DNA of 64,000 bases from a bacterium (GTDB taxonomy: Bacteria; Krumholzibacteriota; Krumholzibacteriia; LZORAL124-64-63). Position 1 is the first letter of the stretch, and the number at the start of each line of letters is the position of its first letter. The position numbers were made by a program, and so were the translations under genes. Shown piece by piece: positions 4,875 through 20,112 of the stretch. The notes under the pieces were generated by a model. It worked only from the letters and a program-made list of their open reading frames with translations. It had not been told where the DNA came from and did not search any database. The stretch lies in the NCBI GenBank assembly GCA_031441465.1, contig JANOEP010000046.1, forward strand, positions 64,001 to 128,000, read 5' to 3'.

Positions 4875-7247
4875 GTGAGGCTGTCCTCCTCGAATTCGCG
4901 CAGGGCGCTGAGGTCGTCGGGCTTCATGACGACCTCGCGGGCCTTGCTGCCGATGAACGGCCCCACCACGCCCGCCTGCTCGAGCAGGTCCATGAGCCGT
5001 CCGGCGCGCGCATAACCGATCTGCAGCTTGCGCTGCAGCATCGAGGTCGACCCGTGCTGGGACAGCACGATGATCTCGCGCGCCTTCTCGAACAGCGGGT
5101 CGTCGTCGAGATCCAGCACGGAGGCCTCCTCGCGCTCCTCCTGCAGGGTGATGGGCCGCGTGACGTGCTTGAACTGTCGCCAGTGGGCGGCCAGGGCCTC
5201 GCACTCCTCGATGTCGATGAACGCGCCGTGGACGCGCACCGGCGTGGCCCGGCCCGGCTGCAGGTACAGCATGTCGCCCTTGCCCAGGAGCTTCTCGGCT
5301 CCGTTCGCGTCCAGGATGGTGCGCGAGTCGTTCTTCTGGATGACCCGGAAGGCGATGCGGCAGGGGATGTTGGCCTTGATCACGCCGGTCAGCACGTCGA
5401 CGCTCGGGCGCTGCGTCGCCAGCACCAGGTGGATGCCCACGGCGCGCGCCTTCTGGGCGATCCGGGTGATCGGCATCTCGATCTCCTGGCCGAGCTGGAT
5501 CATGAGATCCGCCAGTTCGTCGACGATGCAGACGTAGTAGGGCATCGGCTCGCTGATCGCAACGCCGTCGTCGCCTGCAATCTCGCCGGCGGCCACCTTG
5601 CGGTTGTAACCCTCGATGTTGCGCACGCTGTGGCGCGAGAGGCGCCGGTAGCGGTGGTCCATCTGGGCTTCCATCCACTTCAGCGCCCGCAGCGCGTCCT
5701 TGGGGTCGGTCACCACCGGCAGCAGCAGGTGCGGGATGTCGTTGTAGACGTTCAGCTCCAGCATCTTGGGATCGATCAGCAGCAGCCGGACCAGGGAGGG
5801 GTCGCAGCGCAGCAGCAGCGAGCTGATCATGGCGTTGACGCAGACGCTCTTGCCGCTGCCGGTCGAGCCGGCCACCAGCAGGTGGGGCTGCTCGGCGAGG
5901 TCGATCGTCACCGCCTCGCCGAAGACGTCGCGGCCCAGCACCACGCTCAGCGGGGTGCGCATGCGGTCGGCGGCCTGGACGAAGACCTCCTTCATCGAGA
6001 CGATCTGCTGCGTCGGGTTGGGGATCTCGATGCCGACGGCCGCCTTGCCGGGGATGGGAGCCTCCATGCGGATGGAGCGGGCCTTCATCGCCAGGGCGAG
6101 GTCGTCGGAACGCTGCACGATGGCGTTGACCTTGATCCCGGACGCCGGCTGGTACTCGTAGGTGGTCACCACGGGGCCGGGCCGGACGTCCTTGACCGCG
6201 CCCTCGACGCCGAACGAGCGCAGCGTCTCCTCGAGCAGGTCGGCCGCGGCGTGCAGCAATTCCGCGGAAACGGCCACGCGGTCGGTCGGCGGTTCGCGCA
6301 GCACCGAGAGGTCGGGCAGCGGCAGCGGCACCGCCGGATCCACCAGTCCCGAGGTGACTTCGGCGAATCCCTCGGCAGAGCCGGCGGCCGAGGCGCGGCG
6401 GCCCGCCACCGGCGGTCCGTCATCTTCGTCGAAATCCCTCGCCGAGGCGCGGTCGTGGTCGGGCGGGGCGTGCACGACGCGCGGGGTTGCGGCGGCCGGG
6501 GCCGGTTCCGCACGGGAACGGGCGGGCGCGACGGCCGACGCCACGGCCGCGGGCTTCACGACGCGCCGTTCGGCCTCGTCCCTGGCCGTCGCGGCCGCGC
6601 CGCGCCAGGTCCGGGCGATCCCGCGCACCAGACGCCACGGCAACATCAGAACCCAGAGCAACGCGCGCCAGGCGGCCACCAGTCCCGTGCCCAGCGCCTC
6701 TCCCCAGGGTCCCAAGCGGCCGAGGAAGGCCGGCAACCAGGGGTGCGTGGCGCGCAGCACGGCGGTCAACAGCAGGAACGACAGGAAGATGCCGGCGCCC
6801 CAGCGTCCGAAGAGGGCGCCGAATCCGCGCGCGAGGCCGTAACCGGGAGCCCCGCCCCACGCCGCGGCCGGCGCCGCTTCCAGCGGCCAGCCGGATTGCC
6901 CCAGCCAGGCGACCGAGGCAAGGCACAGCGGGATCAACCGGCTGCCCAAGTACAGTCGAGGCGCCTCACCGCGCGCCAGCAGGACCAGGCCGCGGATCGC
7001 CAGCAGCAACGGCAGGGCCCAGCACCAGAGCGCGCCCAGACCGGCGCGCAGCGCCAGCGCGACCAGGGCGCCGACCGGACCGCCGGGGTTGCCCTGGGGC
7101 ATCAATTCGGAGCCGGGATCGCCGTTCGCCAGGGACCACCAAGAGGCGGCCGGGCCGCTGAGCGCGAGCGCCGCGTAGACGGCCAGCACCACGTGCAGCA
7201 GGCCGCCGAGCCGCGGGGACCGCCACCAGCTTGCGGCGTTGGTCTGG

Positions 7248-7270
<23 letters not shown>
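4871..7270 (-). CDS. ftsK: DNA translocase FtsK/SpoIIIE
   Basis: N-terminal TM segments, [49 protein letters not shown], gamma domain [21 protein letters not shown] 7270 with AAGGAGG RBS. Confidence 0.96.
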
Positions 7271-8633
<1,363 letters not shown>

Positions 8634-8697
8634 CCGCGTCTCTCCTGTCGTGGCTCGGTACGGGAACGGCGGCGGCGGCGGCCGCTGCCGCCGGACG

Positions 8698-8726
8698 ATT
8701 GTCCGGCCGGCGCCGGAAAATGGCAA
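8698..8726 (-). promoter_or_regulatory. Putative sigma70 promoter for accC-ftsK-rimO and downstream genes
   Basis: TTGCCA-N17-GACAAT on the minus strand in the accB/accC gap. Confidence 0.5.
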
Positions 8727-8745
8727 GCCTGGAAGCGGGACGGGA

Positions 8746-8776
8746 GCGGCGCGCGCCCCCCGGGGACGCGCGCCGC
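8746..8776 (-). terminator. GC-rich stem-loop after accB (terminator or mRNA 3' stabiliser)
   Basis: RNA GCGGCGCGCGUCCC-CGG-GGGGCGCGCGCCGC, a 14-bp stem with one G-U pair, 14 nt after the accB stop; no clear U-tract. Confidence 0.5.
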
Positions 8777-8790
8777 GGCTGGACGACGGT

Positions 8791-9255
8791 TCAGGCGGGA
8801 TCCACGAGGAACAGGATCGCCTCGGCTTCCACCGGCGTGGCGTTCTCGACCAGGATCTCTTTGATGACCCCGCCGAATTCGGCCTCGATCTCGTTCATGA
8901 CCTTCATGGCTTCGATGATGCACAAGGTCTGGCCCGGCTTGATGGTGTCACCCGTGTTGACGAAGTTCGGCACGTCCGGCGCGGGACCCCGGTACAGCGT
9001 GCCGACGATGGGCGAGCGGATCTCGCGCCACTTCGCCCGTTCGGGGTTGGCCGCGGGAGCGGCGGGCGCCGCCGTCGCGGAGGCGGCGACCGGCGCGGCC
9101 GCCGCCGGGGGCAACGTGGCGGCGTAGGCCAGGTGGGCCGACGGCGCGGCGTGCTTCTGGATGCGGATGGTGGTGTCCTTGTCGATCACTTCGAGTTCGT
9201 CGATGCGGCTGTCCTCGACCAGCTTGACAAGCTCGCGCACCTTGCTGAGATCCAT
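8791..9255 (-). CDS. accB: Biotin carboxyl carrier protein
   Basis: Ala/Pro linker, [23 protein letters not shown] biotinylation motif. Confidence 0.97.
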
Positions 9256-9279
9256 GGTCTCCCCTTCCGGCCGGAGGCG

Positions 9280-9837
9280 TCAGACGCGCCCCAGGTACTT
9301 GCCCGTGCGGGTGTCGATCTTGAGGACCTCGCCCTCCTCGATGAACAGCGGCACCTGGACGACGAGCCCCGTCTCCAGGGTCGCCGGCTTGGAGGCGCCC
9401 TGGGCGGTGTCGCCACGCAGACCGGGATCGGTCTGGGCCACCTTCAGCTCGACGGTGTTGGGCGCCTCGACGGTCACCGGCACGCCGTCGCGCAGGAGCA
9501 TGTTGACCGTCTCGCTCTCCTTGACGTACTTGGCCACATCGCCCAGCGTGTCCCGGGGCAGCGAGATCTGCTCGTAGGTCTCGAGGTTCATGAAGGTCAG
9601 AAAATCGCCGTCCACGTAGAGGAACTGGAAGTCGCGACGCTCGAGCCGGACCTCCTCGAACTTCTCCCCGGAACGGAACGTGTCCTCGACGACCTTCCCG
9701 GTGGAAACGTTCTTCAGCTTCGTGCGCACGAAGGCCGAGCCCTTGCCCGGCTTGACGTGCTGGAAATCGACGATGGCCCAGAGACTGTTCTTGTAGTTCA
9801 GGACCATGCCGTTGCGAAAATCGCTCGTGTCAGCCAA
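9280..9837 (-). CDS. efp: Translation elongation factor P
   Basis: TTG 9837 with AGGAG RBS; FQHVKPGKGSAFVRTKLKN, TDPGLRGDTA, KPATLETG, KIDTRTGKYLGR. Confidence 0.97.
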   Translation of the reverse strand: MADTSDFRNGMVLNYKNSLWAIVDFQHVKPGKGSAFVRTKLKNVSTGKVVEDTFRSGEKFEEVRLERRDFQFLYVDGDFLTFMNLETYEQISLPRDTLGDVAKYVKESETVNMLLRDGVPVTVEAPNTVELKVAQTDPGLRGDTAQGASKPATLETGLVVQVPLFIEEGEVLKIDTRTGKYLGRV

Positions 9838-9892
9838 CTCGGCCTCTCCTGTGCGAGTGACGCCCTGCCGGGCAGCGTGAAAATGCCCACTA

Positions 9893-9921
9893 TTGATAAC
9901 ATCTGTTCCGCGAGATGGCAA
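9893..9921 (-). promoter_or_regulatory. Putative sigma70 promoter for efp-accB
   Basis: TTGCCA-N17-TATCAA with a TG extension, in an AT-richer gap. Confidence 0.45.
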
Positions 9922-10374
9922 TCAGGCGTTGCCGTCTCCCAGCAGCCCCTTCACGCCCCGCAGGGCAAGGCGGTAGCTGTCGACGCCGAAACCGCAGATC
10001 GAAGCCCTGACGACGTCCCGCAGCAGGTTCTGCCGGCGGAACGGCTCGCGGGCGTCGGGATTGGAAAGGTGGACTTCGACCACGGGCGTCGCCACGCAGA
10101 GCAGCGCGTCGCGCACCGCCACCGAGGTGTGGGTGTAGGCGGCGGCGTTGACCACCAGCGCCGCGGCCTCGTTCCCCCAGTGATGGATCAGGGTCACGAG
10201 TTCGCCCTCGACCTCGGTCTGGTGGCAGACGACGCGCAGCCCCAGCGCGGCACCTTCGGCCACACAGACGGCGTCGAGCTGCGCCAAGGTGAGCGCGGGG
10301 TAATGCTCGGCCTCGCGACGGCCGAGCTGGCTCAGGTTCGGCCCGTTCAGGACCGCGACCAGGGGTGCGGTCAC
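9922..10374 (-). CDS. aroQ: Type II 3-dehydroquinate dehydratase
   Basis: LNGPNLSQLGRRE..HY, NAAAYTHTSVAVRDA, VEVHLSNPDAREPFR. Confidence 0.95.
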   Translation of the reverse strand: MTAPLVAVLNGPNLSQLGRREAEHYPALTLAQLDAVCVAEGAALGLRVVCHQTEVEGELVTLIHHWGNEAAALVVNAAAYTHTSVAVRDALLCVATPVVEVHLSNPDAREPFRRQNLLRDVVRASICGFGVDSYRLALRGVKGLLGDGNA

Positions 10375-11213
10375 GCCGGGCCGCCCTGCTGCCGGTCGAT
10401 CCAGGCTTCGAAGCGGGCGCGGTTGTGGTCGGCCGGCGGTGAGCCGGCGACGGGAGCCGCCGGTTCCGGCGCCGCGGCGCCGGCGGGGACGCCCCCTGCC
10501 GCTCCCGGCGCACAGGGCGTCGCGTCCGCCGTCGCGTCGACCGCTTCCAGGCTGGCGATTTCACGGGCCACGTCGGCGCGCTCCGGGTGCTCGGCCAGCA
10601 GCCGGCGCAGGATCGCGAGCGCCTTCTGACGGTGTCCCTGGGCCAGATAGATCTCGGCCAGGGTCTGGGTCAGGAATCGCGGCGCCGGGCCGATGTCCGC
10701 GACGGGTGGGGACGCCGCCACCGCCGGCGCGGTCTCGGCTGGCGGCGCCCACGGCTGATCGGCCCCGGCCGCCGGTTCGTCGTCGGTCGCCGCATCGGCC
10801 GGGATCATGTCTTCCTGGATCGCAGCTACCGGGAACACTTCCGTCGGGCCACCACCGACCGGCACGTCGACGAATGTCGCCGTTGCGGCCGCGATCCCGG
10901 CGGGCGCCGCCGGTTCGCGATCCGGCAGGGCCAGCAACTGTGGCGCTTCACGGTGGCCGGCATCGCGATCGAGCACCGCGCGGGCCAGGTCGCGCGCCTC
11001 GGCCGGTCGTCCTTGATCACGGCGGACGCGGGCTAGGACGACCCGGGCCGACAGGGAGTCGGCGCACCGTTCGAGCCCCTCCTCGAGCAGGGCCGAGGCG
11101 GCTTCCAGCCGGCCTTCCGCCCGGTAGAGTTCGGCCAGAGGGATGAAGAACCGGTCGCGCGGCCGGCGGTCCTGCTGCATCTCGAAGTAGCGGATCATGC
11201 GATCGTGGGTCAC
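10371..11213 (-). CDS. Tetratricopeptide repeat protein
   Basis: N-terminal TPRs (LAELYRAEG.., LARVRRDQG..), Ala/Pro/acidic linker, C-terminal TQTLAEIYLAQGHRQKALAIL; GTG 11213 with GAAGGA RBS. Confidence 0.8.
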   Translation of the reverse strand: MTHDRMIRYFEMQQDRRPRDRFFIPLAELYRAEGRLEAASALLEEGLERCADSLSARVVLARVRRDQGRPAEARDLARAVLDRDAGHREAPQLLALPDREPAAPAGIAAATATFVDVPVGGGPTEVFPVAAIQEDMIPADAATDDEPAAGADQPWAPPAETAPAVAASPPVADIGPAPRFLTQTLAEIYLAQGHRQKALAILRRLLAEHPERADVAREIASLEAVDATADATPCAPGAAGGVPAGAAAPEPAAPVAGSPPADHNRARFEAWIDRQQGGPA

Positions 11214-11297
11214 GCCGTTTCCTTCAACCAACTGGTGATCGTCGCTGCAACGAGCGTGTCGGTCGCGACCCGCGGCGGGCCCGCTGGCCGACGGTTC

Positions 11298-11327
11298 AGT
11301 CTAGGCACTCGCATGGTCCGCCGTCAA
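11298..11327 (-). promoter_or_regulatory. Putative sigma70 promoter for TPR-aroQ
   Basis: TTGACG-N18-TAGACT. Confidence 0.55.
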
Positions 11328-11345
11328 GCCGCCTGCGGGAATCGT

Positions 11346-12038
11346 TCACAAGATACCCAACCAGGGCCCCAACAGTTCCTGGAACCTGCCGACCAGCAGC
11401 GCCACGCGCCCCATGACGGCCGAACCGAAGGAGGCGCCGAAGGTGATCATCAGCACCAGCAGGCCCCAGCGGGCCACCCGCCCGTAGGCGCCCTTCTGTT
11501 CGCGCGTGTTGACGAAATAGACCAGGCCGCTGACCGTGCCGGCCAGCACCAGCAACTGGGCCAGGCTCTCCTGCCAGAGCCAGCGGCCGGCCGCCGTCGG
11601 GGCCAGCCCCGCGCCGATGGTCGCCTGGATCTGGTAGAGGAAGTCCGAACGCAGGTAACGGACCAGCGAATAGCCGGCGGTGGTGCCGAGGGCGAACGCG
11701 GTGGGCCACTTGCCGAGCCAGGACAACCGCGGCCACAACCGCGCCAGCATCAGCAGACCCAGCGCCGCGGGGATCAGGGCCACGGGGTCCCAGGCGCCCA
11801 CCGGCGCCTCGGGGCTGGACCAGCGGCCAGCGGCCGGGAAGAGCTTCAACACGAGGGCGGGCCACAGGGTCGTCCAGAAGCCCATCACCATCCAGTAGGC
11901 CGCCGACACGCCGACGAACACGTGCTCGGCGAACTTGTAGAACGGGTTGTCCCGCCACAGGAAGGAGAAGACCATCAGGGTCAGCAGCGCGCCGATCCAG
12001 ACCTGCAAGTCCCCGCTGAGGTGGATCGCGGCGATCAC
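11346..12038 (-). CDS. Uncharacterised polytopic membrane protein (module gene 4)
   Basis: C-terminal part of ORF 11346..12920; GTG 12038 overlaps the upstream stop; about 6 TM helices; FSFLWRDNPFYKFAEHVFVGVSAAY, LMITFGASFGSAVMGR. Confidence 0.8.
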   Translation of the reverse strand: MIAAIHLSGDLQVWIGALLTLMVFSFLWRDNPFYKFAEHVFVGVSAAYWMVMGFWTTLWPALVLKLFPAAGRWSSPEAPVGAWDPVALIPAALGLLMLARLWPRLSWLGKWPTAFALGTTAGYSLVRYLRSDFLYQIQATIGAGLAPTAAGRWLWQESLAQLLVLAGTVSGLVYFVNTREQKGAYGRVARWGLLVLMITFGASFGSAVMGRVALLVGRFQELLGPWLGIL

Positions 12039-12910
12039 GGCGTCCTCCGGCGCGCGAGGCGGCGCAGCAGCAGACCCGCGTTGCCCAGCAGGATGAAGGC
12101 GACGATCACCAGGTGCGCCGCCGACTGGGGGCCCATCCCGCGGGTGGCCTGCTGATTGGCGGCCACGAACTCGGGATGGCCCCGGGCGAGCGCGCCCTCG
12201 TACTCGGCCGCCCCCTTCAAGGCGCTCATCAGGCCGAGGATCTGCAACGGGTAGTAGGGGAAGAACTGCGGGGCGCCCACGCCGGTACAACCGCCGGCGA
12301 GCGGCACGTCCAGCACATCGCCGGCGTAGAGGATCCACTCCTTGAGACCCGGCTGCCCCGCCGAAAGGCTGACGATCAGGCCGAAGTCGGCCAGGCCGCG
12401 CACGCCGCGCAGCGCGGCGATCTGCCGCAGCGGCCGGCCGGCGACGTCCGTGGGGTAGCGCGCGGTCAGCGAATCGCGCAGGCTGTTGATGAGCATCTCC
12501 CCGCCGACCTGGAAGCCGAGCGAGACCCAGTCGCGGCCGGGGGCGGCCTGCGGGAATTCCCGCGCGATGACGCGCTCCTCCACGCGCGAGATCATGTTGT
12601 TGCCCGTGGGGTACAGCGACATGTAGCAGATCGGGTGGCCGGTCAGCAGCGCGTGCTGGGTCAAGGCGTCGGCCATGGGCTCGAGTTCCGGGGCGGAGCT
12701 GGGCGAGTAGTCCAGCGACAACAGGATCGGCGCTCCGGCCGGCAGGTTTTCGATGCGGTCGTAGATCGGCTGAACGACGGAGGTGGCCCGATCGGGCGTG
12801 CTCACGCCGGTGAGCAGCGACACCACGACGACCGCGGCCAGCACCAGGAAGATCCAGCGCCGGTCCAGGGACTCCAGCCGCGAGGCGAGCCGATCGTACC
12901 GGTGGATCAC
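12035..12910 (-). CDS. Uncharacterised protein with N- and C-terminal TM anchors and an alpha/beta soluble domain (module gene 3)
   Basis: DRRWIFLVLAAVVVVSLL TM; LLSLDYSPSSAPELEPM; GLMSALKGAAEYE; MGPQSAAHLVIVAFILLGN TM. Confidence 0.8.
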   Translation of the reverse strand: MIHRYDRLASRLESLDRRWIFLVLAAVVVVSLLTGVSTPDRATSVVQPIYDRIENLPAGAPILLSLDYSPSSAPELEPMADALTQHALLTGHPICYMSLYPTGNNMISRVEERVIAREFPQAAPGRDWVSLGFQVGGEMLINSLRDSLTARYPTDVAGRPLRQIAALRGVRGLADFGLIVSLSAGQPGLKEWILYAGDVLDVPLAGGCTGVGAPQFFPYYPLQILGLMSALKGAAEYEGALARGHPEFVAANQQATRGMGPQSAAHLVIVAFILLGNAGLLLRRLARRRTP

Positions 12911-13623
12911 GACCCGTCACCTCCGGAGCGGGGGTCCTTCTCCAGGCCGGCGATCATGCGCACCGCCAGGGCGATGACGCCCAGGGCGATCCCGATCATC
13001 AGGGCCCGCTGCCCGGCGGTGTTGGGCACGCGCAGGATCCAGAGGGACAGTTCCTCGACCCGCAGGAAGGCGACGGGCTCCGGGATCCAGGCCGTCAGGT
13101 AGCGCCCGGCGGGGATGCGGCCGAGCAGGACCACCAGGGCCGAGGCCAGCAGCAGGGTCGACTCGAGGGACCGCGCGCGGAAGGCGCGGTACGAGGCCGA
13201 CGCGATGTAGAAGGCCAGCAGGCTGTAGAGCGTCGCGTGCAGCGGGCTGAGCACCGCATCGAACACCGTGCTCAGCCAGCTGCCGGGCGCGGTGACGTCG
13301 CCCTGCAGGCCGGGCGGGCCGCCCAGCTTGGCCATGCCGACCACCAGCACGATCACGAACGAGACCAGGGTGACGAGGGAGTAGTAGCGGTCCGGACCGC
13401 GGTCCCTGATCTTCACCAGGTGCGTCGCGACGAGGTTCAAGCCGCCGAGCAGGAAAGCGAAGACCGTCAGGATGCTGAACCAGGTGGCGAACTCCTGGTC
13501 GGCGAAAGCCAGCATCCGCTGCACGTAGGGCGCGTTCCCGTCCTCGGGACGGGCGATGAAAGCCGAGATGATCAGCAGCACCGCCGTGACGGACAGGATG
13601 ATCTGCGGCACGCGCTGCTTCAC
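12907..13623 (-). CDS. Uncharacterised polytopic membrane protein (module gene 2)
   Basis: GTG 13623; about 6 TM helices; PLHATLYSLLAFYIASASYRAFRARS, WILRVPNTAGQRALMIGIALG. Confidence 0.8.
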   Translation of the reverse strand: MKQRVPQIILSVTAVLLIISAFIARPEDGNAPYVQRMLAFADQEFATWFSILTVFAFLLGGLNLVATHLVKIRDRGPDRYYSLVTLVSFVIVLVVGMAKLGGPPGLQGDVTAPGSWLSTVFDAVLSPLHATLYSLLAFYIASASYRAFRARSLESTLLLASALVVLLGRIPAGRYLTAWIPEPVAFLRVEELSLWILRVPNTAGQRALMIGIALGVIALAVRMIAGLEKDPRSGGDGS

Positions 13624-13628
13624 GGGGC

Positions 13629-14441
13629 TCACCCCGCCCGGAAGACGTTGAGGAAGGCGTCGCGCAGGAACGTCCAAGGCGCCGCCCCGGTCACGTCCGC
13701 CACGGTCACCACCAGGCTGCCCGCGACGAGGCAGACCGCGGCCGCGAGTTTGCAGAGATCCTGGCCGCGCAGGCTGCCGAGCCGGGCGGCGTCGCCCTCC
13801 AGGGAAGCGGCCGCGGCGAAGAGTTCCTCGCCGAGCAGCACGTGATCGCACGACGCCACCAGGAAGGGCAGCTGGACCGCGCTGGCGGTGCCCGCGATCT
13901 GGACCGCTCCGACCTGGTGCCCACCTTCGGCCAGCAGCAGCGATTCCGAGGCGAAGAAGCCCATCAGGACGCAGAGGCCAGGGCGCTCGCGGGCGATGAG
14001 CCCGTCCACCCGCGCCACGAAACCGAGGTGGTCGTCCGAGATGTAGGCCACCCAGTCGTCGCGCCAGAGATCGGCGCGGCCGGCGTCGGCGTAGGCGAGG
14101 CGGCAGATCTCACGCGCGTTGTCCATGACCAGGCTGCGGTTGGTCGGGACGAACAGGCGGCCGCCGGCTTCGGCGACCTTGCGCGCGAGCGGCCGCAGCA
14201 CGGCCAGCGCCGCGACCGTCTGCATGTTGTCGAGATCCTGGGAGCCGGCGACGAAGTAGACGGGCCGTCCGGCGGCGACGGCGTCGGCGACGGCGCGGTC
14301 GAGGGCGAGCAGAGGCGGCAGGGCGCGCACCGACACCGTGGCGCCGCGGCGGGCCCGCAGGACCGAGAACCCGATCAGGGCGCACACGAACGCGCCGACC
14401 AGGGCGACGTTCCAGGTCCCGGGTGCGAGCCAGCCGCTCAC
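13629..14441 (-). CDS. DUF6754-like membrane-anchored protein (module gene 1)
   Basis: GTG 14441; N-terminal TM followed by RARRG; VRALPPLLALDRAV..A..GRPVYF..G; FFASESLLLAEGG, QIAGT, QLPFLVASCDHVLLGEELFAAAA, LGSLRGQD. The family name is recalled from memory. Confidence 0.72.
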   Translation of the reverse strand: MSGWLAPGTWNVALVGAFVCALIGFSVLRARRGATVSVRALPPLLALDRAVADAVAAGRPVYFVAGSQDLDNMQTVAALAVLRPLARKVAEAGGRLFVPTNRSLVMDNAREICRLAYADAGRADLWRDDWVAYISDDHLGFVARVDGLIARERPGLCVLMGFFASESLLLAEGGHQVGAVQIAGTASAVQLPFLVASCDHVLLGEELFAAAASLEGDAARLGSLRGQDLCKLAAAVCLVAGSLVVTVADVTGAAPWTFLRDAFLNVFRAG

Positions 14442-14731
14442 GGGCCCGTCTCCGGACGCGGGCCTTCCAGCAGGTCCAGCAGGCGGTCGAAGTGGCAGCG
14501 CTGCTCCAGGATGCGCGCCAGGCGCGCCGTACCGGAGCGCGGCACCACGAGATCGCAGAAGGGACTCGCGACGTGCAGGGCCTGCGAGCCCAGGAACGAC
14601 AGCGGGCTGGAACTCGCGAGCCACAGCAGGGCCGGCGTCGCCAGGCCCGCGCCGCGCACGCGCGCCGCCAGGCCGGCGAGGAACGCGTCGTCGGCGGGGT
14701 CGAGGCTCGGCGGGCGGCCGGCGTCGCTCAT
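14438..14731 (-). CDS. Small hypothetical protein
   Basis: 97 aa, start/stop overlaps on both sides; GLATPALLWLASSSPLSFLGSQAL. Confidence 0.7.
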   Translation of the reverse strand: MSDAGRPPSLDPADDAFLAGLAARVRGAGLATPALLWLASSSPLSFLGSQALHVASPFCDLVVPRSGTARLARILEQRCHFDRLLDLLEGPRPETGP

Positions 14732-16389
14732 GTCACCTTCGCCTTCACGTGGGCGGTCACCACCACCATGTCGTCCAGCAGCCCCTCGCTACAGGCGAGC
14801 GGATCGCTGCACGCGAGCTTGGCCAGGAACTCGCGCGGGGTCTCCCCGTCCGGCGGCAGAACGGCGACCGCACAACCGGCGGCGCAGGTCGCGGCGCCGT
14901 CGCGCACGGCCGCCAGGGCCAGGCGGGCGTTCACCCGGCTCATCACGGCGACGGCCGCCGCCTCGGCGTACCCCGCCGCGGCCAGCGCGGCCGCGCGGCG
15001 GCAGAAGGCGCCGGCCACCTCGCAGGCGGTCATCATGTCGGCCAGACGGAACAGCACCGACTGGCGGCCGTTCGTCTTGCGGGCGTGCACGAACTGGATC
15101 GTCGCGTTGAGGTCGCGGACGGCCGCGGCGGCGAGACCGGCGCCCACCTCGCCGTGGGAGACGTGGAGCGCGTCGAGGCCGGCGGCTGCTTCCTCGTACC
15201 AGGCGCCCCGGGTGCGCACGGTCGACTTCCAGCGGTACAGACCGATGATGCTCTGCTGGATCTCGCTGGTGCCTTCGTAGATCGTCGTGATGCGAACGTC
15301 GCGCTTGATCTTCTCGACCATGTACTCGCGTGCGTAGCCGTAGCCGCCCAGGGCCTGGATGGCCGCCTCGGCCGCCCGGTTGCCGGCCTCGGTGCACCAG
15401 TACTTGGCGATCGAGCCCTCGACCTGCAGGTCGCGCTCGCCGCCGTCGAGGCGCAGGGCGATCTCCTCCACGTAGGCGCGGCCGGCGGCCAGCGCGATCC
15501 AGTGGGGCGTGATGAGCTTGCTGCTGTAGCCTTCCTTGTCGATCAGAGGCGCGCCGAACTGGATGCGTTCGCGGGCGTAGCGCACGGCCCGGTCGAGCGC
15601 CGCCTGGCCGGCGCCCAGGCCGAACGCGCCGACCATCACCCGCGTGTAGCCGAACACGGCGTTGGCCTGTTTCAGCCCCTGGCCCTCCACGCCGCCGATC
15701 AAATGGGAGACCGGGACCTCCACGTCCTCCAGCACGACGCCGCTGGTGTCCGAGGCGCGGATGCCGTGCTTGTCCTCGTGCTTGCCGGCGCTGAGGCCGG
15801 GTGTCGCGCGCTCCACGACGAAGAACGAGGGACCATCGGGCGTCTTGGCCAGGATGGTGTACAGCTCGGCCACGCCGCCGTTGGTGATGAACTGCTTGGT
15901 GCCGTTGAGGCGGTACCCGGTGACGGCGCCGGCGGCGTCGGTCAGGCGGTCGGCGCGCGTCTGCAGCGCGGCCACGTTGCTGCCGGCGGCGGGTTCGGTC
16001 ACGCCGTAGGCGACGATCAGGCCTTCGGCGGCGATGCGGCCCAGCCAGTGGTCCTTCTGCTGCGGCGTGCCGCCGACGATGATCGGGTCGGTGCCCAGGC
16101 AGATCGCCAGGAAGGCGGTCGCCACGCCCAGGTCGATGGCGGCCATCTCCTCGCTGACGCGGCAGATGTCCAGGGCGCCGCCGCCGAGCCCGCCGACGGC
16201 CTCGGGCAGGAAGATCAGGTGCAGGCCGACGTTGGGCGAGAGCAGCTCCCTGATGAAGGCGACGGGGAACTCGTCGCGCGCATCCAGGCCGAGCAGGATG
16301 TCGTCGGGCAGGTCCCGTTGCACGACCTGGCGCAGCGTCTGGACGATCATCTCGCGCATCTCGGGCGACAGGCCGGCGGTCTGGGTCAT
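14728..16389 (-). CDS. Acyl-CoA dehydrogenase with a C-terminal extension
   Basis: AYGVTEPAAGSNV, LNGTKQFITNGG, EDKHGIRASDT, RIQFG, QALGGYGY, RDVRITTIYEGTSEIQ, plus about 150 extra C-terminal residues. Confidence 0.92.
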   Translation of the reverse strand: MTQTAGLSPEMREMIVQTLRQVVQRDLPDDILLGLDARDEFPVAFIRELLSPNVGLHLIFLPEAVGGLGGGALDICRVSEEMAAIDLGVATAFLAICLGTDPIIVGGTPQQKDHWLGRIAAEGLIVAYGVTEPAAGSNVAALQTRADRLTDAAGAVTGYRLNGTKQFITNGGVAELYTILAKTPDGPSFFVVERATPGLSAGKHEDKHGIRASDTSGVVLEDVEVPVSHLIGGVEGQGLKQANAVFGYTRVMVGAFGLGAGQAALDRAVRYARERIQFGAPLIDKEGYSSKLITPHWIALAAGRAYVEEIALRLDGGERDLQVEGSIAKYWCTEAGNRAAEAAIQALGGYGYAREYMVEKIKRDVRITTIYEGTSEIQQSIIGLYRWKSTVRTRGAWYEEAAAGLDALHVSHGEVGAGLAAAAVRDLNATIQFVHARKTNGRQSVLFRLADMMTACEVAGAFCRRAAALAAAGYAEAAAVAVMSRVNARLALAAVRDGAATCAAGCAVAVLPPDGETPREFLAKLACSDPLACSEGLLDDMVVVTAHVKAKVT

Positions 16390-16430
16390 GATTCACTCCT
16401 GATGAACGGTGGCGGATGGTGGCGACGGTC

Positions 16431-17357
16431 TCAGAGGACCGAACCCTGATCGAAGCGCAGGCGGCCTTGTGCGAGCAGGACGCCGTGCCCGCCCACGCGG
16501 ATCGCGCCGCAACGGCCGTCGTGGACCTCGGCCTCGGCGTACAGGCGGCTCGGGCGCCTCATTTCCAGTCCCTGCTCGCAGACGATGCGGACGTGGGGCT
16601 GCGGCGGCACCAGGCGGTGCTTGATCATGTACGCGATCAAGGCGCCCGCGGCGCTGCCGGTCGCCGCGTCCTCGGGGATGCCGAAGTCCTGGGCGAACAT
16701 GCGGCAGTGCACGTCGACCCCGGCGCCCTCGGCCTCGCAGGTGAAGACGAAGAGGTCGCCGAAGCCGAGGTCGCGGGAGATCTCCCGCGCCGCGGCCCGA
16801 TCGAAGCGGATGGACTGCACGGCCTCGAGCGAACCCATCGGGACGATGTGGATGGGCAGGCCCGCCGAGACGATCTCGCAGGGCAGGCCCGTGATGGCGA
16901 TGTCCGTTTCCTCGACGCCCAGCGCCCGGGCCACCTTGCCCCGCTGGTAGTACTGCCCGATGAACTCCGCGGGCTCGTGGACCAGCGAGTACAGCGTGGC
17001 GCCGTCGACTTCCGACAGCACGACGGGGAACTCGCCGGCCTCGGTCCGCCAGTGGAAGCGGGTCTCGTCGCCCCCCCGTGCGATCCGGCCGCAGGCGTCC
17101 AGGCCGCAGGTGGCGCCCAGGATCGAAAGCCCCGACAAGGGGATCTCCCCCTTGGGCGTGAAGATCCGCAGCCGGGCGCGGTTGACGCCGCCGGGGTCCG
17201 GCTCCGCGAACACCGTCTCGCCGGTGCCCATCTCGCGGGCGATGACCTGGAGCAGGGCGGTCGGCACGCCGGCCGCGTCGGGGAACAGCGTCAGACGGCT
17301 GCCGCCGAACGGCACGCGCGTGTACAGGTCCAGGTGCATGAATTCGCGTTCGAACAA
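16431..17357 (-). CDS. PhzF/diaminopimelate-epimerase-fold protein
   Basis: IAREMGTGETVF, RLRIFTPKGEIP, RMFAQDFGIPEDAATGSAAG, EQGLEMRRPS; start placed at TTG 17357 (GGGGA RBS) because ATG 17402 lies inside the predicted -10 box. Confidence 0.88.
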   Translation of the reverse strand: MFEREFMHLDLYTRVPFGGSRLTLFPDAAGVPTALLQVIAREMGTGETVFAEPDPGGVNRARLRIFTPKGEIPLSGLSILGATCGLDACGRIARGGDETRFHWRTEAGEFPVVLSEVDGATLYSLVHEPAEFIGQYYQRGKVARALGVEETDIAITGLPCEIVSAGLPIHIVPMGSLEAVQSIRFDRAAAREISRDLGFGDLFVFTCEAEGAGVDVHCRMFAQDFGIPEDAATGSAAGALIAYMIKHRLVPPQPHVRIVCEQGLEMRRPSRLYAEAEVHDGRCGAIRVGGHGVLLAQGRLRFDQGSVL

Positions 17358-17400
17358 GCGGATCCCCGTGGTTGCGTTGGGCTGCGGCAACTCAGCGGGC

Positions 17401-17429
17401 ATCCTAACCGCTCGCCCGCGGCGGTGCAA
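17401..17429 (-). promoter_or_regulatory. Putative sigma70 promoter for the phzF-like/ACAD/membrane-module operon
   Basis: TTGCAC-N17-TAGGAT. Confidence 0.5.
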
Positions 17430-17468
17430 GCAGGGGATGACGGGCAGGGGTGGCGGGGGGGGGCGCCG

Positions 17469-17837
17469 TCAGTCGAGGACCACGACGGCCATGGCGATCT
17501 CGCGCTCGTGGCTGAGGGACAGCAGGACGCGCCCTCCCCCGCGCTCGCGCAGGGCCTCCGCCGCGCCGCCGTGCAACCGCAGGACCGCAGGACCGCCCTC
17601 GCAGTGGACGACCTCGACGTCGCGGTAGGCGATCGGGCCGGCGACTCCGATCGCCTTGACGAAGGCCTCCTTCGCCGCCCAACGCGAGGCGAGGGTGGCC
17701 GGACCCTGGGCGCCGCGCCGCGCCGCCAGGGCGATCTCGTCGGGCCGGAAGCAGCGCTGCAGGAAGCGATCGCCGTGACGCTCGACCGCGGTGCGGATGC
17801 GCGCGACCTCGACGATGTCGCTGCCGAGCCCGCGCAT
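17469..17837 (-). CDS. acpS: Holo-ACP synthase
   Basis: MRGLGSDIVEVARI, LASRWAAKEAFVKA, LSLSHE. Confidence 0.95.
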   Translation of the reverse strand: MRGLGSDIVEVARIRTAVERHGDRFLQRCFRPDEIALAARRGAQGPATLASRWAAKEAFVKAIGVAGPIAYRDVEVVHCEGGPAVLRLHGGAAEALRERGGGRVLLSLSHEREIAMAVVVLD

Positions 17838-18538
17838 CAGTAGGCTCCCTTGCGCTCGATCACGGCGGGGATCGTGCGCGACAGGATCCGCAGGTCGAAG
17901 ACCGGCCCGCGCCGCCGCACGTACTCGAGATCCAGTTCCATCCAGTCCTCGAAATCCAAGTGGCTGCGCCCCGACACCTGCCACAGGCAGGTCAGCCCGG
18001 GCTTCACCTGGAGCCGCCGCGCCTGGGCGGGCGTGTACGCGGCCACCTCGCTGGGGATCTGCGGACGCGGGCCGACCACCGACATCTCGCCGCGCAGCAC
18101 GTTGTACAGCTGCGGGAACTCGTCGAGGCTGCTGCGCCGCAGGAAACGGCCGACGCCGGTGATGCGGGGGTCGCGCTCGATCTTGAAGGCGGCGCCGCTG
18201 GCCTCGTTCAGGTGGGCGAGGTCGTCCTTGCGGGTCTCGGCGTCCACGACCATCGAGCGGAACTTGTAGCAGTCGAAGGCGCGCCCCCGCAGGCCGACGC
18301 GGCGCTGGCGGAAGAACACCGGGCCCGGGGTGTCGAGCCTGATCAGGATGACGAGCAGCGGGAAGACCGGCAGCACCAGCAGCAGGCCGACGGCGGCTCC
18401 CAGGAGGTCCACGAGGCGCTTGACCGCGGCGCCGGCGGGATTGGCGGTGGGCACGGGCCCGTGGGGGTCGCGCGCGATGAAGGCGGCGTAGCCGCCGGCG
18501 GCGGCGTAGACATCCGCGTCGTCGAGGTGAGGGCTCAC
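17837..18538 (-). CDS. Monotopic phosphoglycosyl (sugar) transferase, WbaP/WcaJ C-terminal family
   Basis: KRLVDL, GPVFFRQRRVG, YKFRSM, DPRITGVGRFLRRSSLDEFPQLYNVLRGEMSVVGPRP, VKPGLTCLWQVSGRS; GTG 18538. Confidence 0.93.
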   Translation of the reverse strand: MSPHLDDADVYAAAGGYAAFIARDPHGPVPTANPAGAAVKRLVDLLGAAVGLLLVLPVFPLLVILIRLDTPGPVFFRQRRVGLRGRAFDCYKFRSMVVDAETRKDDLAHLNEASGAAFKIERDPRITGVGRFLRRSSLDEFPQLYNVLRGEMSVVGPRPQIPSEVAAYTPAQARRLQVKPGLTCLWQVSGRSHLDFEDWMELDLEYVRRRGPVFDLRILSRTIPAVIERKGAY

Positions 18539-20112
18539 CGGACGGCCTCCCCGCCCGCCGCGGGCGCGCGCCGCCAGTGCAGGGCGGTCACGCCGGGGAA
18601 CTCGCGCACCGCGACCACGTCGCCCAGATCGTCGAGCGCCGCCGGGAAGTGATGGCCCGGGTCGAGCGTCCCGCTGCGGCACAGGACCAGCCAGGCCTGG
18701 TCGGCGTCGCCGATCCGTTCGGACAAGGCGCCGACCACGGCGTCGCGGCCGACGAGCGCCCCGAGACCCCAGAAGTCGCGCACCTCGCCGCGGCCGTCGT
18801 AGTAGAGCCGGAACAGGTCGGTGACCACGGGCACGAGCACCGGGTCGCCCGCGGCGTCCTGGTTCGCGATCCAGACCGCGGCAGCCCGCACGTCGTCCTT
18901 GGCGTAGCGAGGATCGAGGTGGTAACTGCCCGACGACCACAGGGTCAACCCGAGCAGGGCCAGGCTCGCCACCCTCACCGTCCAGCCGTGCATCACGCTG
19001 AGCCCGTGTCCGGCCGCCAGCAGCAGGAAGGGGGCCGCCACCGCCAGGTAGCGGGGCGTGAAGGTCTTCACGTCGAGCAGGCGCATCGCGATGAGAGCGA
19101 CGAACGGCACCACGATCCACAGCGCCGTTTCCCGGCGCCGCCGGCTGCGCCACCAGCCCGTGACCGTCGGGAAAGCGGCCGCGAGCGCGCCTGCGGCCAA
19201 CAATGGCAGGTAGCGGCGGACGATCTCCAGGCGGTCGGGCCGGTGCAACTCCTCCAGCGTCGGGCCGAGGCTGAAGCCGTAGAAGAATGTGAACAGGGCG
19301 TAGGGGACGGCCAGGGGCGTCAGGCGTTCCTGGCCCTCGGGCAGCAGCCCGCCCCCGCCTCCCGGCGCCAGGCGTCCGGGATACCAGTAGCCTGTCGCCT
19401 GCAGCAGCCAGGGCAGGATGATCAGACCGGTCACCCCGAAGGCGACCGCCCAGCCGCGCCGGGCCTCGCCGCTTTGCGGGCGGTGCAGCAGGACCACACC
19501 CAGGACGTGGGCCACGATCAGCAACAGGGCCGACATGTTGCTCAGCACGGCGAGTCCGGCGAGCAGGCCGTAGGTCAACCCGCCCCGCGTCGAGGCGCCG
19601 TGCCGCTGCATGCGCAGCAGCTGCAGGGTCGCCGCCATGGCGAGCAGGACCATCAGGGAATAGCCGCGCGCTTCCTGCCCGTACCAGACGTGGAACGGGT
19701 TGAGGGCGAGCAGCAGGGCCGCCCAGGCACCGGTCGACCGGTCGCGCCATTCGCTGCCGAGTTTGTACATCAGCGGGACGGCCAGGATGCCGGCCAGCGC
19801 CGCCGGCAGCCGCAATAGCCATTCGGGGGAGGCCGGTTGCCCGGGGCGCCAGCTCAGCAGCAGGTACAGGGGCCCCTGGATGTTGTCGCGGAACTGCTCC
19901 CAGAGCCCGTGGCCGGCGCCGGGATGGAGGTTGTGCCAGGTCTGGTACTCGTCGATCCAGAGCGGCGAAGCGCCGAGGTGGTAACCGCGCAGGATGGCCG
20001 CCGCGGCCGTCACCAGGATCACGAACAGGAGCCTTTCGCTGCGCCGACCGGCGGGATCGAGCGCGGGCATGGCCCCCAGTCGAAAGTCGGCGTGCTCCCG
20101 GCGCGAACTCAT
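18535..20112 (-). CDS. GT-C fold glycosyltransferase (family 39/ArnT/PMT-like)
   Basis: LWIDE, GPLYLLL, LRLPAALAG, NPFHVWYGQEARGYSL, PRYL; many TM helices. Confidence 0.85.
   Translation of the reverse strand: MSSRREHADFRLGAMPALDPAGRRSERLLFVILVTAAAAILRGYHLGASPLWIDEYQTWHNLHPGAGHGLWEQFRDNIQGPLYLLLSWRPGQPASPEWLLRLPAALAGILAVPLMYKLGSEWRDRSTGAWAALLLALNPFHVWYGQEARGYSLMVLLAMAATLQLLRMQRHGASTRGGLTYGLLAGLAVLSNMSALLLIVAHVLGVVLLHRPQSGEARRGWAVAFGVTGLIILPWLLQATGYWYPGRLAPGGGGGLLPEGQERLTPLAVPYALFTFFYGFSLGPTLEELHRPDRLEIVRRYLPLLAAGALAAAFPTVTGWWRSRRRRETALWIVVPFVALIAMRLLDVKTFTPRYLAVAAPFLLLAAGHGLSVMHGWTVRVASLALLGLTLWSSGSYHLDPRYAKDDVRAAAVWIANQDAAGDPVLVPVVTDLFRLYYDGRGEVRDFWGLGALVGRDAVVGALSERIGDADQAWLVLCRSGTLDPGHHFPAALDDLGDVVAVREFPGVTALHWRRAPAAGGEAVR

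What the first reader, a model, noticed from the sequence alone, without database searches (positions are those of the whole stretch)
11346..14441. Uncharacterised four-subunit membrane module (DUF6754-like): candidate novel transporter or transmembrane complex
Seen: four tightly coupled genes (two GTGA overlaps, one 5-nt gap). Two encode ~6-TM proteins (11346-12038, 12907-13623); two encode a ~200-aa alpha/beta domain between terminal TM helices (12035-12910, 13629-14441). There is no Walker A, Fe-S or heme motif and no ABC, TRAP or ECF signature. Charged or polar residues lie in or beside TM helices (FAEH, MGR, SYRAFR, GQRA, QSAAH, GQD.K). Recalled, not verified: similar four-gene sets occur unannotated in several candidate phyla and some archaea. 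Inference: an undescribed secondary transporter or ion-coupled complex, possibly for amino acids, peptides or acyl compounds given the co-transcribed PhzF-like and acyl-CoA dehydrogenase genes.
Basis: partly seen in the sequence, partly recalled or inferred. Interest (0 to 1): 0.8.

Follow-up and report, generated by a model that had tools for sequence, protein, structure and literature searches.

The report
Undescribed conserved four-protein membrane module
Four tightly coupled genes encode a membrane protein set that recurs in the same order across many bacterial phyla, usually beside an actin/Hsp70-fold ATPase that this organism has lost, and it matches no described transporter or machine.

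Summary
Four minus-strand genes (D 13629-14441, C 12907-13623, B 12035-12910, A 11346-12038) are joined by two GTGA overlaps and a 5-nt gap. A fifth small gene, E (14438-14731), is joined by a third GTGA overlap. D is Pfam DUF6754. C, B, A and E match no Pfam, NCBIfam or PDB sequence.

The order D-C-B-A is kept in 20 of 20 loci from relatives. It is also kept after 99 of 117 D genes in 79 loci from other phyla (16 are cut by a locus end, 2 are odd).

The module belongs to a larger undescribed cluster: F, E, a GlmL/MutL-like ASKHA ATPase, X, then one to four D-C-B-A modules. The window's lineage lost F, the ATPase and X, but keeps E-D-C-B-A under purifying selection (dN/dS 0.10-0.38).

AlphaFold models give D and B the same plan: a Rossmann-like domain between two membrane helices. 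By prediction the two domains face opposite sides of the membrane.

The link to acyl-CoA dehydrogenase and PhzF is lineage-specific, so the amino-acid/acyl secondary-transporter reading is weakly founded. My best reading is a translocation or transduction module of a new kind, cargo unknown. Function is inferred, not shown.

The parts
14438..14731 (-). E: a 97-aa protein with no known family. Its stop overlaps D's start (GTGA) and its start overlaps the acyl-CoA dehydrogenase stop. In other genomes it sits in front of, or is fused to the N-terminus of, a GlmL-like ATPase.
   Evidence: no Pfam or NCBIfam hit; homologues upstream of D in 14 of 20 relatives' loci; E-ATPase fusions in L026, L041, L045; own HMM E 1e-37 on the window.
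13629..14441 (-). D: 270 aa, Pfam DUF6754. Plan: TM helix, Rossmann-like (beta-alpha)x6 domain, TM helix. The domain is predicted to be cytoplasmic. This is the short form, lacking the signal peptide and FN3-like N-terminal domain found in most phyla.
   Evidence: E 1.5e-78; AlphaFold2 model, pLDDT 94.4; only generic Rossmann matches; long forms.
12907..13623 (-). C: 238 aa, about 6 TM, no known family. Invariant motif AF..AS.SYRAFR and R206. In other genomes the loop between TM3 and TM4 is a hot spot for inserted domains.
   Evidence: no Pfam hit; 0 PDB sequence hits at E<=10; 3114 cluster representatives at E<=0.001; inserts.
12035..12910 (-). B: 291 aa, no known family. Plan: Arg-rich N-terminus, TM helix, Rossmann-like (beta-alpha)x6 domain, TM helix, Arg-rich C-terminus. 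The domain is predicted to be periplasmic.
   Evidence: AlphaFold2 model, pLDDT 95.1; best structural match PDB 1kjn, Z 10.7; no Pfam hit in any of 120 listed homologues nor in 21 members scanned.
11346..12038 (-). A: 230 aa, about 6 TM, no known family. Near-invariant D30, N31, E38 and invariant R211.
   Evidence: no consistent Pfam hit; 0 PDB sequence hits at E<=10.
14728..16389 (-). Acyl-CoA dehydrogenase. Its stop overlaps E's start. It is a neighbour of the module only in this lineage.
   Evidence: Pfam Acyl-CoA_dh_N/M/1; adjacent in 6 of 79 loci outside the close relatives.
16431..17429 (-). PhzF-family isomerase upstream of the dehydrogenase. Also a lineage-specific neighbour.
   Evidence: Pfam PhzC-PhzF E 1.2e-41; adjacent in 4 of 79 loci.
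11298..11327 (-). Sigma-70-like promoter match between A's stop and the next gene (a TPR protein, 10371-11231). It suggests the coupled gene run ends with A.
   Evidence: 1 site found against 0.2 expected from shuffles; a consensus match only.

Best explanation
The four genes encode the membrane core of a widely conserved, so far undescribed multi-protein system.

Shown: D-C-B-A is a fixed gene set. In most lineages it follows F (a small 2-TM protein), E, a GlmL/MutL-like ASKHA (actin/Hsp70-fold) ATPase, and X (barrel-sandwich domain, central domain, KOW-like domain). Often one to three further D-C-B-A modules are present in tandem or elsewhere in the genome. The window's lineage lost F, the ATPase and X, and keeps E-D-C-B-A under purifying selection.

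Inferred: the four proteins form one inner-membrane complex of about 16 helices. C and A, the two polytopic subunits, would form a polar path built from their invariant Arg, Asp and Glu residues. D would hold a Rossmann-like domain on the cytoplasmic face and B a like domain on the periplasmic face. E would be the cytoplasmic adaptor through which the ATPase docks where it is present. The complex would work as a translocation or transduction device that passes a cargo or a conformational signal between cytoplasm and periplasm. In the full system it would be driven by ATP. In this reduced form it would be driven by something else, such as ligand binding or an ion gradient. The cargo is unknown. 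A macromolecular or envelope-linked cargo fits the add-on domains better than a small solute does.
For: Gene coupling. Fixed order in 20 of 20 relatives' loci and after 99 of 117 D genes, 16 of the rest cut by a locus end. The C family alone has 3114 cluster representatives at E<=0.001. Record titles of the 79 loci name at least a dozen phylum-level groups.

ATPase link: PF13941 was found over its cut-off in 12 of 41 related genomes. All 12 are among the 21 that carry DUF6754, and each has a PF13941 match within about 3.5 kb of a DUF6754 match on the same contig. E, ATPase and X lie together beside D-C-B-A in 24 of 79 loci, and ATPase plus X in 9 more. In 5 of 5 genomes whose fetched locus showed D-C-B-A alone, a single GlmL-like gene lies elsewhere inside an F-E-ATPase-X cluster, followed by D-C-B-A in 4 of the 5. 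E is fused to the ATPase in L026, L041 and L045.

Reduced form: the window's D nests with SH-like support 99 in a clade of 14 rows, of which 10 directly follow X. PF13941 and F were not found in G000, which is 96.8% complete. dN/dS against a same-genus genome is D 0.15, C 0.38, B 0.21, A 0.10, E 0.31, and 0.24 for the neighbouring dehydrogenase.

Architecture: AlphaFold2 models of D (pLDDT 94.4) and B (95.1) show the same order of elements, TM-helix-(beta-alpha)x6-TM. Long D forms begin with a signal-peptide-like segment and an FN3-like domain before TM1. Positive charges flank B's helices on the N- and C-terminal sides and D's helices on the domain side.
Against: No assay, no solved structure and no validated complex model exists; function is inferred from anatomy and neighbours alone. 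The Rossmann-like domains match only generic folds, in flat lists at Z about 8-10, so they do not point to a ligand. The window's genome lacks the ATPase, so any ATP-driven mechanism does not apply here directly. One of 38 long C variants scanned carries an FHA domain in the TM3-TM4 loop. FHA domains are usually cytoplasmic (recalled knowledge), which sits badly with my charge-based topology placing that loop outside. Topologies of B, C and A rest on the positive-inside rule read by eye, not on a dedicated predictor. Neighbours in some paralogous loci are ordinary solute carriers (Na:alanine symporter, SSF), which would suit a small-solute role.
Confidence: 0.4

Rival explanations
1. One reading: a secondary (ion-coupled) carrier for a small solute such as an amino acid, peptide or acyl compound, feeding the PhzF and acyl-CoA dehydrogenase encoded upstream.
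For: Two 6-TM subunits with conserved charged residues. This genome has no ATPase partner. The module is translationally coupled to an acyl-CoA dehydrogenase through E. Na:alanine and SSF symporter genes lie beside paralogous modules in L013, L021 and L022. B's domain resembles, among many other folds, a lobe of a periplasmic sugar-binding protein (3rot_B, Z 8.1).
Against: The dehydrogenase and PhzF are adjacent in only 6 and 4 of 79 loci. The ancestral and widespread partner is an ATPase. Add-on FN3-like, FG-GAP, TPR and WD40 domains are unusual for solute carriers. No carrier family was hit in Pfam even at E<=1.
Confidence: 0.15
2. A non-transporting envelope scaffold or assembly machine. 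The complex would anchor or position periplasmic or cell-surface partners through FN3-like, propeller and TPR add-ons, and link them to a cytoplasmic actin/Hsp70-fold ATPase. This would be comparable in logic to MreBCD or FtsA-based assemblies (a comparison from general knowledge, not tested).
For: Protein-interaction domains are inserted in C's TM3-TM4 loop and at D's exported N-terminus. Module paralogues are conserved across Zixibacteria and Ignavibacteria in fixed positions of three-module arrays, as if they were distinct parts of one machine. The ATPase is of the ASKHA fold.
Against: The window's D and C carry none of these add-ons. The module is patchily distributed even within one family: 17 of 24 genomes in f1, and 0 of 13 in four other families of the class. 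That argues against a core envelope role. No similarity to any known scaffold protein was found.
Confidence: 0.2
3. A membrane-bound enzyme or ion-translocating energy-converting complex with an Nqr/Rnf-like layout. This would comprise two roughly 230-aa 6-TM subunits in opposite orientation, one anchored periplasmic domain, one anchored cytoplasmic Rossmann-like domain, and a soluble barrel-sandwich subunit (X) comparable to NqrA/RnfC N-terminal domains.
For: The subunit inventory and predicted orientations resemble that layout (my reading). X gives weak RnfC_N and Biotin_lipoyl hits, the best being 28.3 bits against a cut-off of 22.1. Transhydrogenase domain III is among D's structural neighbours (4j16_C, Z 9.7).
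Against: C and A contain no cysteine, and no flavin, Fe-S or heme motif is present. The Rnf/Nqr subunit family is not among Pfam hits of 21+21 members at E<=1. The hairpin lysine of X's barrel domain is not conserved. There is no NqrB/RnfD-like partner.
Confidence: 0.1
4. A decaying remnant: having lost F, the ATPase and X, the window's E-D-C-B-A genes no longer function.
For: F, PF13941 and X were not found in G000 nor, for PF13941, in six same-genus genomes.
Against: All frames are intact, and every family-invariant residue is present in the window's proteins. dN/dS is 0.10-0.38, like the neighbouring dehydrogenase. The reduced form is kept in three genera. An E-D-C-B-A locus without the ATPase also occurs in an Eisenbacteria record (L090).
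Confidence: 0.03

Closest known systems
Pfam DUF6754 (PF20539)
   Same: D is a full-length member (residues 5-248 on profile positions 6-249 of 257).
   Different: The family is only a catalogue entry without function. It covers one of the four (or eight) proteins. No paper in the searched library mentions DUF6754 or PF20539.
GlmL/MutL accessory protein of glutamate mutase (PF13941; ASKHA fold)
   Same: The ATPase that accompanies the module in other genomes matches PF13941 at E 1e-105 to 1e-126. MutL/GlmL is described as a chaperone involved in reactivating glutamate mutase (PMC4682846, Fig 4 legend; passage seen).
   Different: These proteins score below the cut-offs of all three NCBIfam GlmL models (156-158 bits against 204 for the family model). 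They are about 150 aa longer, carry E at or before their N-terminus, and lie beside membrane genes. I saw no glutamate mutase gene among the neighbours scanned. The gene is absent from the window's genome as far as searched.
Na+-NQR / Rnf complexes (architecture only)
   Same: A comparable parts list: two small 6-TM subunits predicted in opposite orientation, one TM-anchored periplasmic domain, one TM-anchored cytoplasmic Rossmann-like domain, and a soluble barrel-sandwich subunit. This comparison is from general knowledge.
   Different: No sequence relation, no cysteines in C or A, no cofactor motifs, and no large NqrB/RnfD-like subunit.
ECF and ABC importers that share one energising module among several membrane modules
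   Same: One ATPase gene per genome serves, by inference, one to four D-C-B-A modules lying in tandem or dispersed.
   Different: The ATPase is ASKHA-fold, not an ABC NBD. There is no Walker A motif in the window's proteins and no EcfT, S-component or ABC permease family hit.
RCK/KTN (TrkA/KtrC) regulatory domains, and PDB 1kjn (MT0777, a hypothetical protein)
   Same: These are among the best structural neighbours of both D (6i8v Z 10.0, 1kjn Z 10.0) and B (1kjn Z 10.7, rmsd 3.5, 140 residues aligned; 4g65 Z 8.9).
   Different: The match lists are flat and mix SDRs, sirtuins and GT-B halves, so this is a generic Rossmann-like sandwich. There is no GxGxxG motif. B's domain is predicted to be periplasmic, where RCK domains are not found.

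Membership tests
Pfam DUF6754 (PF20539) | Whole-protein score above the curated gathering cut-off (27 bits). | tested here: met
   D scores 263.9 bits, E 1.5e-78.
ABC transporter | A nucleotide-binding subunit with Walker A and ABC signature, and an ABC permease family, in or beside the module. | tested here: not met
   No Walker A in E, D, C, B or A. No ABC family among Pfam or NCBIfam hits. The neighbours are an acyl-CoA dehydrogenase, a PhzF-family protein and a TPR protein.
TRAP / TTT / ECF transporters | Membership of the membrane subunits in DctQ/DctM, TctA/TctB or EcfT/S-component families. | tested here: not met
   None of these appears among Pfam hits at E<=1 for 21 C, 21 A and 21 B sequences.
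Rnf / Na+-NQR | 6-TM subunits of the RnfA/E-NqrD/E family with conserved cysteines; flavin or Fe-S sites. | tested here: not met
   The family is not among Pfam hits at E<=1. C and A have 0 Cys, and there is no CxxC or CxxCxxC motif.
RCK/KTN (TrkA_N) domain, for D and B | Dinucleotide-binding GxGxxG loop after beta-1. | tested here: not met
   No GxGxx[GA] in D or B.
RCK/KTN (TrkA_N) domain, for D and B | A specific fold match standing above unrelated Rossmann folds. | tested here: inconclusive
   KtrC 6i8v Z 10.0 for D and TrkA 4g65 Z 8.9 for B, both within flat lists.
GlmL/MutL (PF13941) as partner of the module | A PF13941 gene in the same genome or locus. | tested here: not met
   0 matches in G000 (96.8% complete) and in 6 of 6 same-genus genomes; none in the 64-kb window with my own HMM. 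The feature is met in 12 other related genomes and in 5 of 5 genomes of other phyla.
MTH777-like fold (PDB 1kjn), for B | A structural match covering most of the domain and standing above the rest of the list. | tested here: inconclusive
   Z 10.7, rmsd 3.5, 140 of 152 residues; the next rows are at Z 8.9. 1kjn itself has no known function.
Known anti-phage defence systems (PADLOC) | Any protein of the set matching a PADLOC model. | tested here: not met
   0 families at E<=0.01 for 8 proteins: E, D, C, B and A from the window, and the ATPase, X and F from L027.

The most novel reading that the evidence does not exclude
D+C and B+A are two inverted-topology halves of one pseudo-symmetric 16-helix machine, each half being a 2-TM Rossmann-domain protein plus a 6-TM protein. 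The complete system, F-E-GlmL-like ATPase-X-(D-C-B-A)n, would then be a new class of primary active membrane translocase or envelope machine. It would be powered by an actin/Hsp70-fold (ASKHA) ATPase rather than by an ABC, P-type, V/F-type or AAA+ motor. The window would show that the membrane core can persist and work without that motor.
Probability: 0.2. Interest if true: 0.9.

Novelty: categorically new. Interest (0 to 1): 0.72.

Why it matters
If the inference holds, this is a whole membrane system present in thousands of protein clusters and in many mostly uncultured phyla. These include Krumholzibacteria, Zixibacteria, Ignavibacteria, Gemmatimonadota, Planctomycetota, Acidobacteriota, Cloacimonadota and others, going by record titles. 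No function, structure or paper could be found for it. Three of its four core subunits, and three of its four accessory proteins, have no family in Pfam or NCBIfam. Pairing a GlmL-type ATPase with a membrane complex would be a new way of coupling ATP to a membrane process; GlmL is so far known only as a reactivating chaperone of a B12 enzyme. The window's natural minimal version (E-D-C-B-A without the ATPase) offers a small, intact set for expression and structure work.

Tried and rejected
**Complex prediction.** The verdict was 'no answer'. The score was 0.57/0.59/0.57 and the two partner-replaced controls scored 0.00, but the control with B replaced scored 0.62. It therefore counts neither for nor against binding.

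**Ancient duplication.** Profile-profile comparisons of D against B and of C against A found no relation, with either shallow or deep alignments (hhalign probabilities 0.1-1.4%). The duplication idea rests only on the like order of secondary-structure elements and on shared structural neighbours.

**PDB sequence searches with profiles.**
- D and B gave only chance-level rows.
- C and A gave 0 rows at E<=10.
- X gave only weak KOW-like and sandwich-barrel rows.

**Fold searches.** Foldseek found nothing at E<=0.001 for D, and one weak GT-B row for B at 5.3e-4 with rmsd 13.

**Other family searches.**
- Pfam scans of all members of C, A and B at E<=1 found nothing consistent. DUF5693 hit 1 of 21 A sequences.
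- The ESM Atlas returned only hypothetical clusters for X and no usable named cluster for C.
- Among 88 long C forms there were no fusions to known domains.
- PADLOC found none.

**Literature.** DUF6754, PF20539 and PF13941 each returned 0 papers. The word 'GlmL' alone returned noise.

**RNA evidence.** Contigs from four metatranscriptome runs of three studies lie on parts of A, B, C and D at about 85-95% identity, so they come from relatives. Examples are a 907-nt contig on 12028-12930 and an 885-nt contig on 12158-13042. The tool warns that DNA can be present in such libraries and that contigs show no transcript, so I count this only as a faint hint of expression in relatives.

**Terminators.** The scan found no convincing terminator after A.


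Full report
**1. Observation**

The window has about 72% G+C. The region carries a run of minus-strand genes. ORF listing and translation give:
- D, 13629-14441, 270 aa
- C, 12907-13623, 238 aa
- B, 12035-12910, 291 aa
- A, 11346-12038, 230 aa

Reading the junctions confirms two GTGA stop/start overlaps (C/B and B/A) and a 5-nt gap (D/C). There is also a third GTGA overlap, which couples an upstream 97-aa ORF, E (14438-14731), to D. E's start in turn overlaps the stop of an acyl-CoA dehydrogenase (14728-16389), which follows a PhzF-family gene (16431-17429; Pfam).

A hydropathy scan gives D and B one hydrophobic helix at each end, and C and A five to six segments each. No Walker A, CxxCH, CxxC or GxGxxG motif occurs, and C and A have no cysteine. 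A sigma-70-like site lies between A's stop and the next gene, a TPR protein.

**2. Families and folds**

D is Pfam DUF6754 (E 1.5e-78). C, B, A and E hit nothing in Pfam or NCBIfam. This holds when 21 members of each of C, A and B are scanned at E<=1. It also holds for PDB sequences searched with profiles, where C and A gave 0 rows at E<=10.

AlphaFold2 models built on alignments of 121 and 114 sequences are confident: D has pLDDT 94.4 and B has 95.1. Both show the same plan: TM helix, one helix, six beta-alpha units, TM helix.

Fold searches return only generic Rossmann-like neighbours.
- D: a flat list at Z about 10, including SDRs, sirtuins, KtrC/RCK, transhydrogenase domain III and GT-B halves.
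- B: PDB 1kjn, a protein of unknown function, at Z 10.7, then Z 8.9 and below.

Profile-profile comparison finds no sequence relation between D and B or between C and A.

**3. Conservation**

DUF6754 occurs in 21 of 41 related genomes, often in several copies. I fetched 20 such places, and all 20 have D, C, B and A in that order.

A scan of one genome per species found 617 stretches encoding a relative of D. The best 79 loci come from records whose titles name many groups: Krumholzibacteriota, Zixibacteria, Eisenbacteria, Gemmatimonadota, Planctomycetota, Ignavibacteria, Cloacimonadota, WOR-3, Stahlbacteria, Fermentibacteria, Acidobacteriota, Marinimicrobia, Rifleibacteria, and MAGs labelled Deltaproteobacteria and Bacillota.

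With my own HMMs I counted 117 D genes in these 79 loci.
- 99 are followed by C, B, A.
- 16 are cut by the end of the locus.
- 2 are odd: a split D in L084, and L114, where only C follows.
- 16 loci hold three modules in tandem, 3 hold two, and 1 holds four.

The C family alone has 3114 representatives of 50%-identity clusters at E<=0.001, and 2347 at 1e-10.

**4. The larger system**

Pfam on the neighbours showed a 'MutL protein' (PF13941) beside the module in several loci. PF13941 is the GlmL-type ASKHA protein. It is followed by a roughly 375-aa protein with no family, which I call X.

In the related genomes PF13941 passes its cut-off in 12 of 41. All 12 also have DUF6754, and in each a PF13941 match lies within about 3.5 kb of a DUF6754 match.

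In the 79 loci, E, ATPase and X together precede D-C-B-A in 24. ATPase plus X occur in 9 more, X alone at a contig edge in 6, E alone in 1, and none of them in 39. For five of the 'none' loci I searched the whole genomes. All 5 have exactly one PF13941 match elsewhere. It lies in an F-E-ATPase-X cluster that is followed by a further D-C-B-A in 4 of the 5.

F is a roughly 150-aa protein with two hydrophobic helices. It sits directly upstream of E in 11 of the 79 loci, with weak sub-threshold bacterial-PH hits in 3 of 10 sequences scanned.

E is fused to the N-terminus of the ATPase in L026, L041 and L045.

X has a weak barrel-sandwich (Biotin_lipoyl/RnfC_N) hit and a KOW-like C-terminus. Its hairpin lysine is not conserved, so I do not take it for a biotin or lipoyl carrier.

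The ATPase scores below the cut-offs of all NCBIfam GlmL models. MutL/GlmL is described as a chaperone that reactivates glutamate mutase (PMC4682846, Fig 4 legend; passage seen).

**5. The window holds a reduced form**

PF13941 was not found in the window's genome (96.8% complete) or in the six same-genus genomes. F was not found there with one query. My HMMs find only E, D, C, B and A in the 64-kb window.

I built a FastTree tree of 121 D sequences (SH-like supports, midpoint root). In it the window's D lies with support 99 in a clade of 14 rows, 10 of which directly follow X. Within that clade, a subclade of 4 rows with support 100 (the window, L029, L030, L032) has E directly before D. The simplest reading is that this lineage lost F, the ATPase and X.

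The remaining genes are not decaying. All family-invariant residues are present. dN/dS against the same-genus locus L029 is 0.15 (D), 0.38 (C), 0.21 (B), 0.10 (A) and 0.31 (E), compared with 0.24 for the dehydrogenase.

**6. Topology and add-on domains**

In most phyla D is about 400 aa long. It begins with a signal-peptide-like hydrophobic segment and an FN3-like domain before TM1. This places D's N-terminus outside and its Rossmann-like domain in the cytoplasm, and it agrees with the Arg/Lys cluster after TM1.

B has invariant Arg-Arg before TM1 and an Arg-rich tail after TM2, so its domain should be periplasmic. This is inferred from the positive-inside rule.

By the same rule C would be N-in/C-in and A would be N-out/C-out. 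That reading is mine and is not computed.

C's TM3-TM4 loop is a hot spot for inserts of 60-400 aa with no extra hydrophobic helix. Of 38 long forms scanned, one carries FG-GAP repeats, one TPR, one WD40 and one FHA; the rest have no Pfam family. Two further forms with FG-GAP were seen earlier. The FHA case fits poorly with an outside loop.

**7. What it is not**

- There is no ABC, TRAP, TTT, ECF or Rnf/Nqr family hit and no cofactor motif.
- There is no PADLOC defence model hit.
- The dehydrogenase and PhzF neighbours are lineage-specific. They are adjacent in 6 and 4 of the 79 loci, nearly all from the same lineage, and in the orthologous loci of the same family.

**8. Explanation**

I take the four proteins to be one inner-membrane complex that forms the core module of a larger system. 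Its conserved partner is an ASKHA ATPase, docked through E. The most likely job is translocation or transduction across the inner membrane, with cargo unknown (confidence 0.4).

The rivals are:
- a small-solute secondary carrier (0.15)
- a non-transporting envelope scaffold (0.2)
- an Nqr/Rnf-like energy-converting or enzymatic complex (0.1)
- a dead remnant (0.03)

The remainder is 'something else'. What is shown is the anatomy, the conservation, the partner genes, the loss in this lineage and the purifying selection. What is inferred is the assembly, the sidedness of B, C and A, the role of E, and the function.

**9. Novelty**

No paper in the searched library mentions DUF6754, PF20539 or PF13941 (0 papers). 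The library lacks most subscription journals. Source names for homologues are 'hypothetical protein', 'DUF6754 domain-containing protein' or 'fibronectin type III domain-containing protein'. I found no described system with this composition, so I rate it as a new kind. The caveat is that its function is unknown.

Noticed in passing
L026:9933-12110 (-), L041:4706-6844 (+), L045:4736-6865 (+): The small protein E is fused to the N-terminus of the GlmL-like ATPase (709-725 aa; PF13941 begins near residue 111-125). This fusion links E to the ATPase.
   Followed up: partly
e.g. L103:3656-4138, L080:2926-3381, L116:4417-4836: A further conserved gene, F (about 150 aa, two hydrophobic helices plus a small domain), lies directly upstream of E. 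It occurs in 11 of 79 loci and in all 5 extra clusters fetched. Bacterial-PH hits are weak and sub-threshold (3 of 10 scanned). It was not found in the window's genome with one query.
   Followed up: partly
Proteins P0354, P0359, P0388, P0474; L058:12713-14488; L062:12491-14269: C's TM3-TM4 loop takes inserts of very different domains (FHA, TPR, WD40, FG-GAP; most have no family). An FHA domain in a loop predicted to face outward is odd and unexplained.
   Followed up: partly
L052, L058, L062, L063, L064, L068, L073, L084, L107, L109 (e.g. L062:16160-16477): A conserved, very basic protein of about 105 aa lies 300-700 bp downstream of the last A gene of the three-module arrays. It occurs in 10 loci of Zixibacteria and Ignavibacteria type, and its family is unknown.
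   Followed up: no
L118 (G043:C5:1-14000): Here F-E-ATPase-X is not followed by D-C-B-A within about 6.7 kb, unlike the other four clusters fetched with it. The same genome has a D-C-B-A locus elsewhere (L057).
   Followed up: no
window 10371-11231 (-): A TPR-repeat protein follows A, after a promoter-like site. A TPR protein lies in the same position in L023, a genome of the same family. Whether it belongs to the system is open.
   Followed up: partly
window 17469-17984 (-): A 4'-phosphopantetheinyl transferase (ACPS) gene lies just upstream of the PhzF gene on the same strand (Pfam E 4.5e-17).
   Followed up: no
window 7000-20000, both strands: Many long ORFs overlap the real genes on the opposite strand or in other frames (for example 12113-13102 +, 13842-15110 +). 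This is expected at 72% G+C, and I treated them as spurious.
   Followed up: no
window 11346-14731, coded RNA runs X17-X20: Metatranscriptome contigs from three studies lie on all four genes at about 85-95% identity. One 907-nt contig spans the A/B and B/C junctions. They come from relatives and are not proof of transcription.
   Followed up: partly
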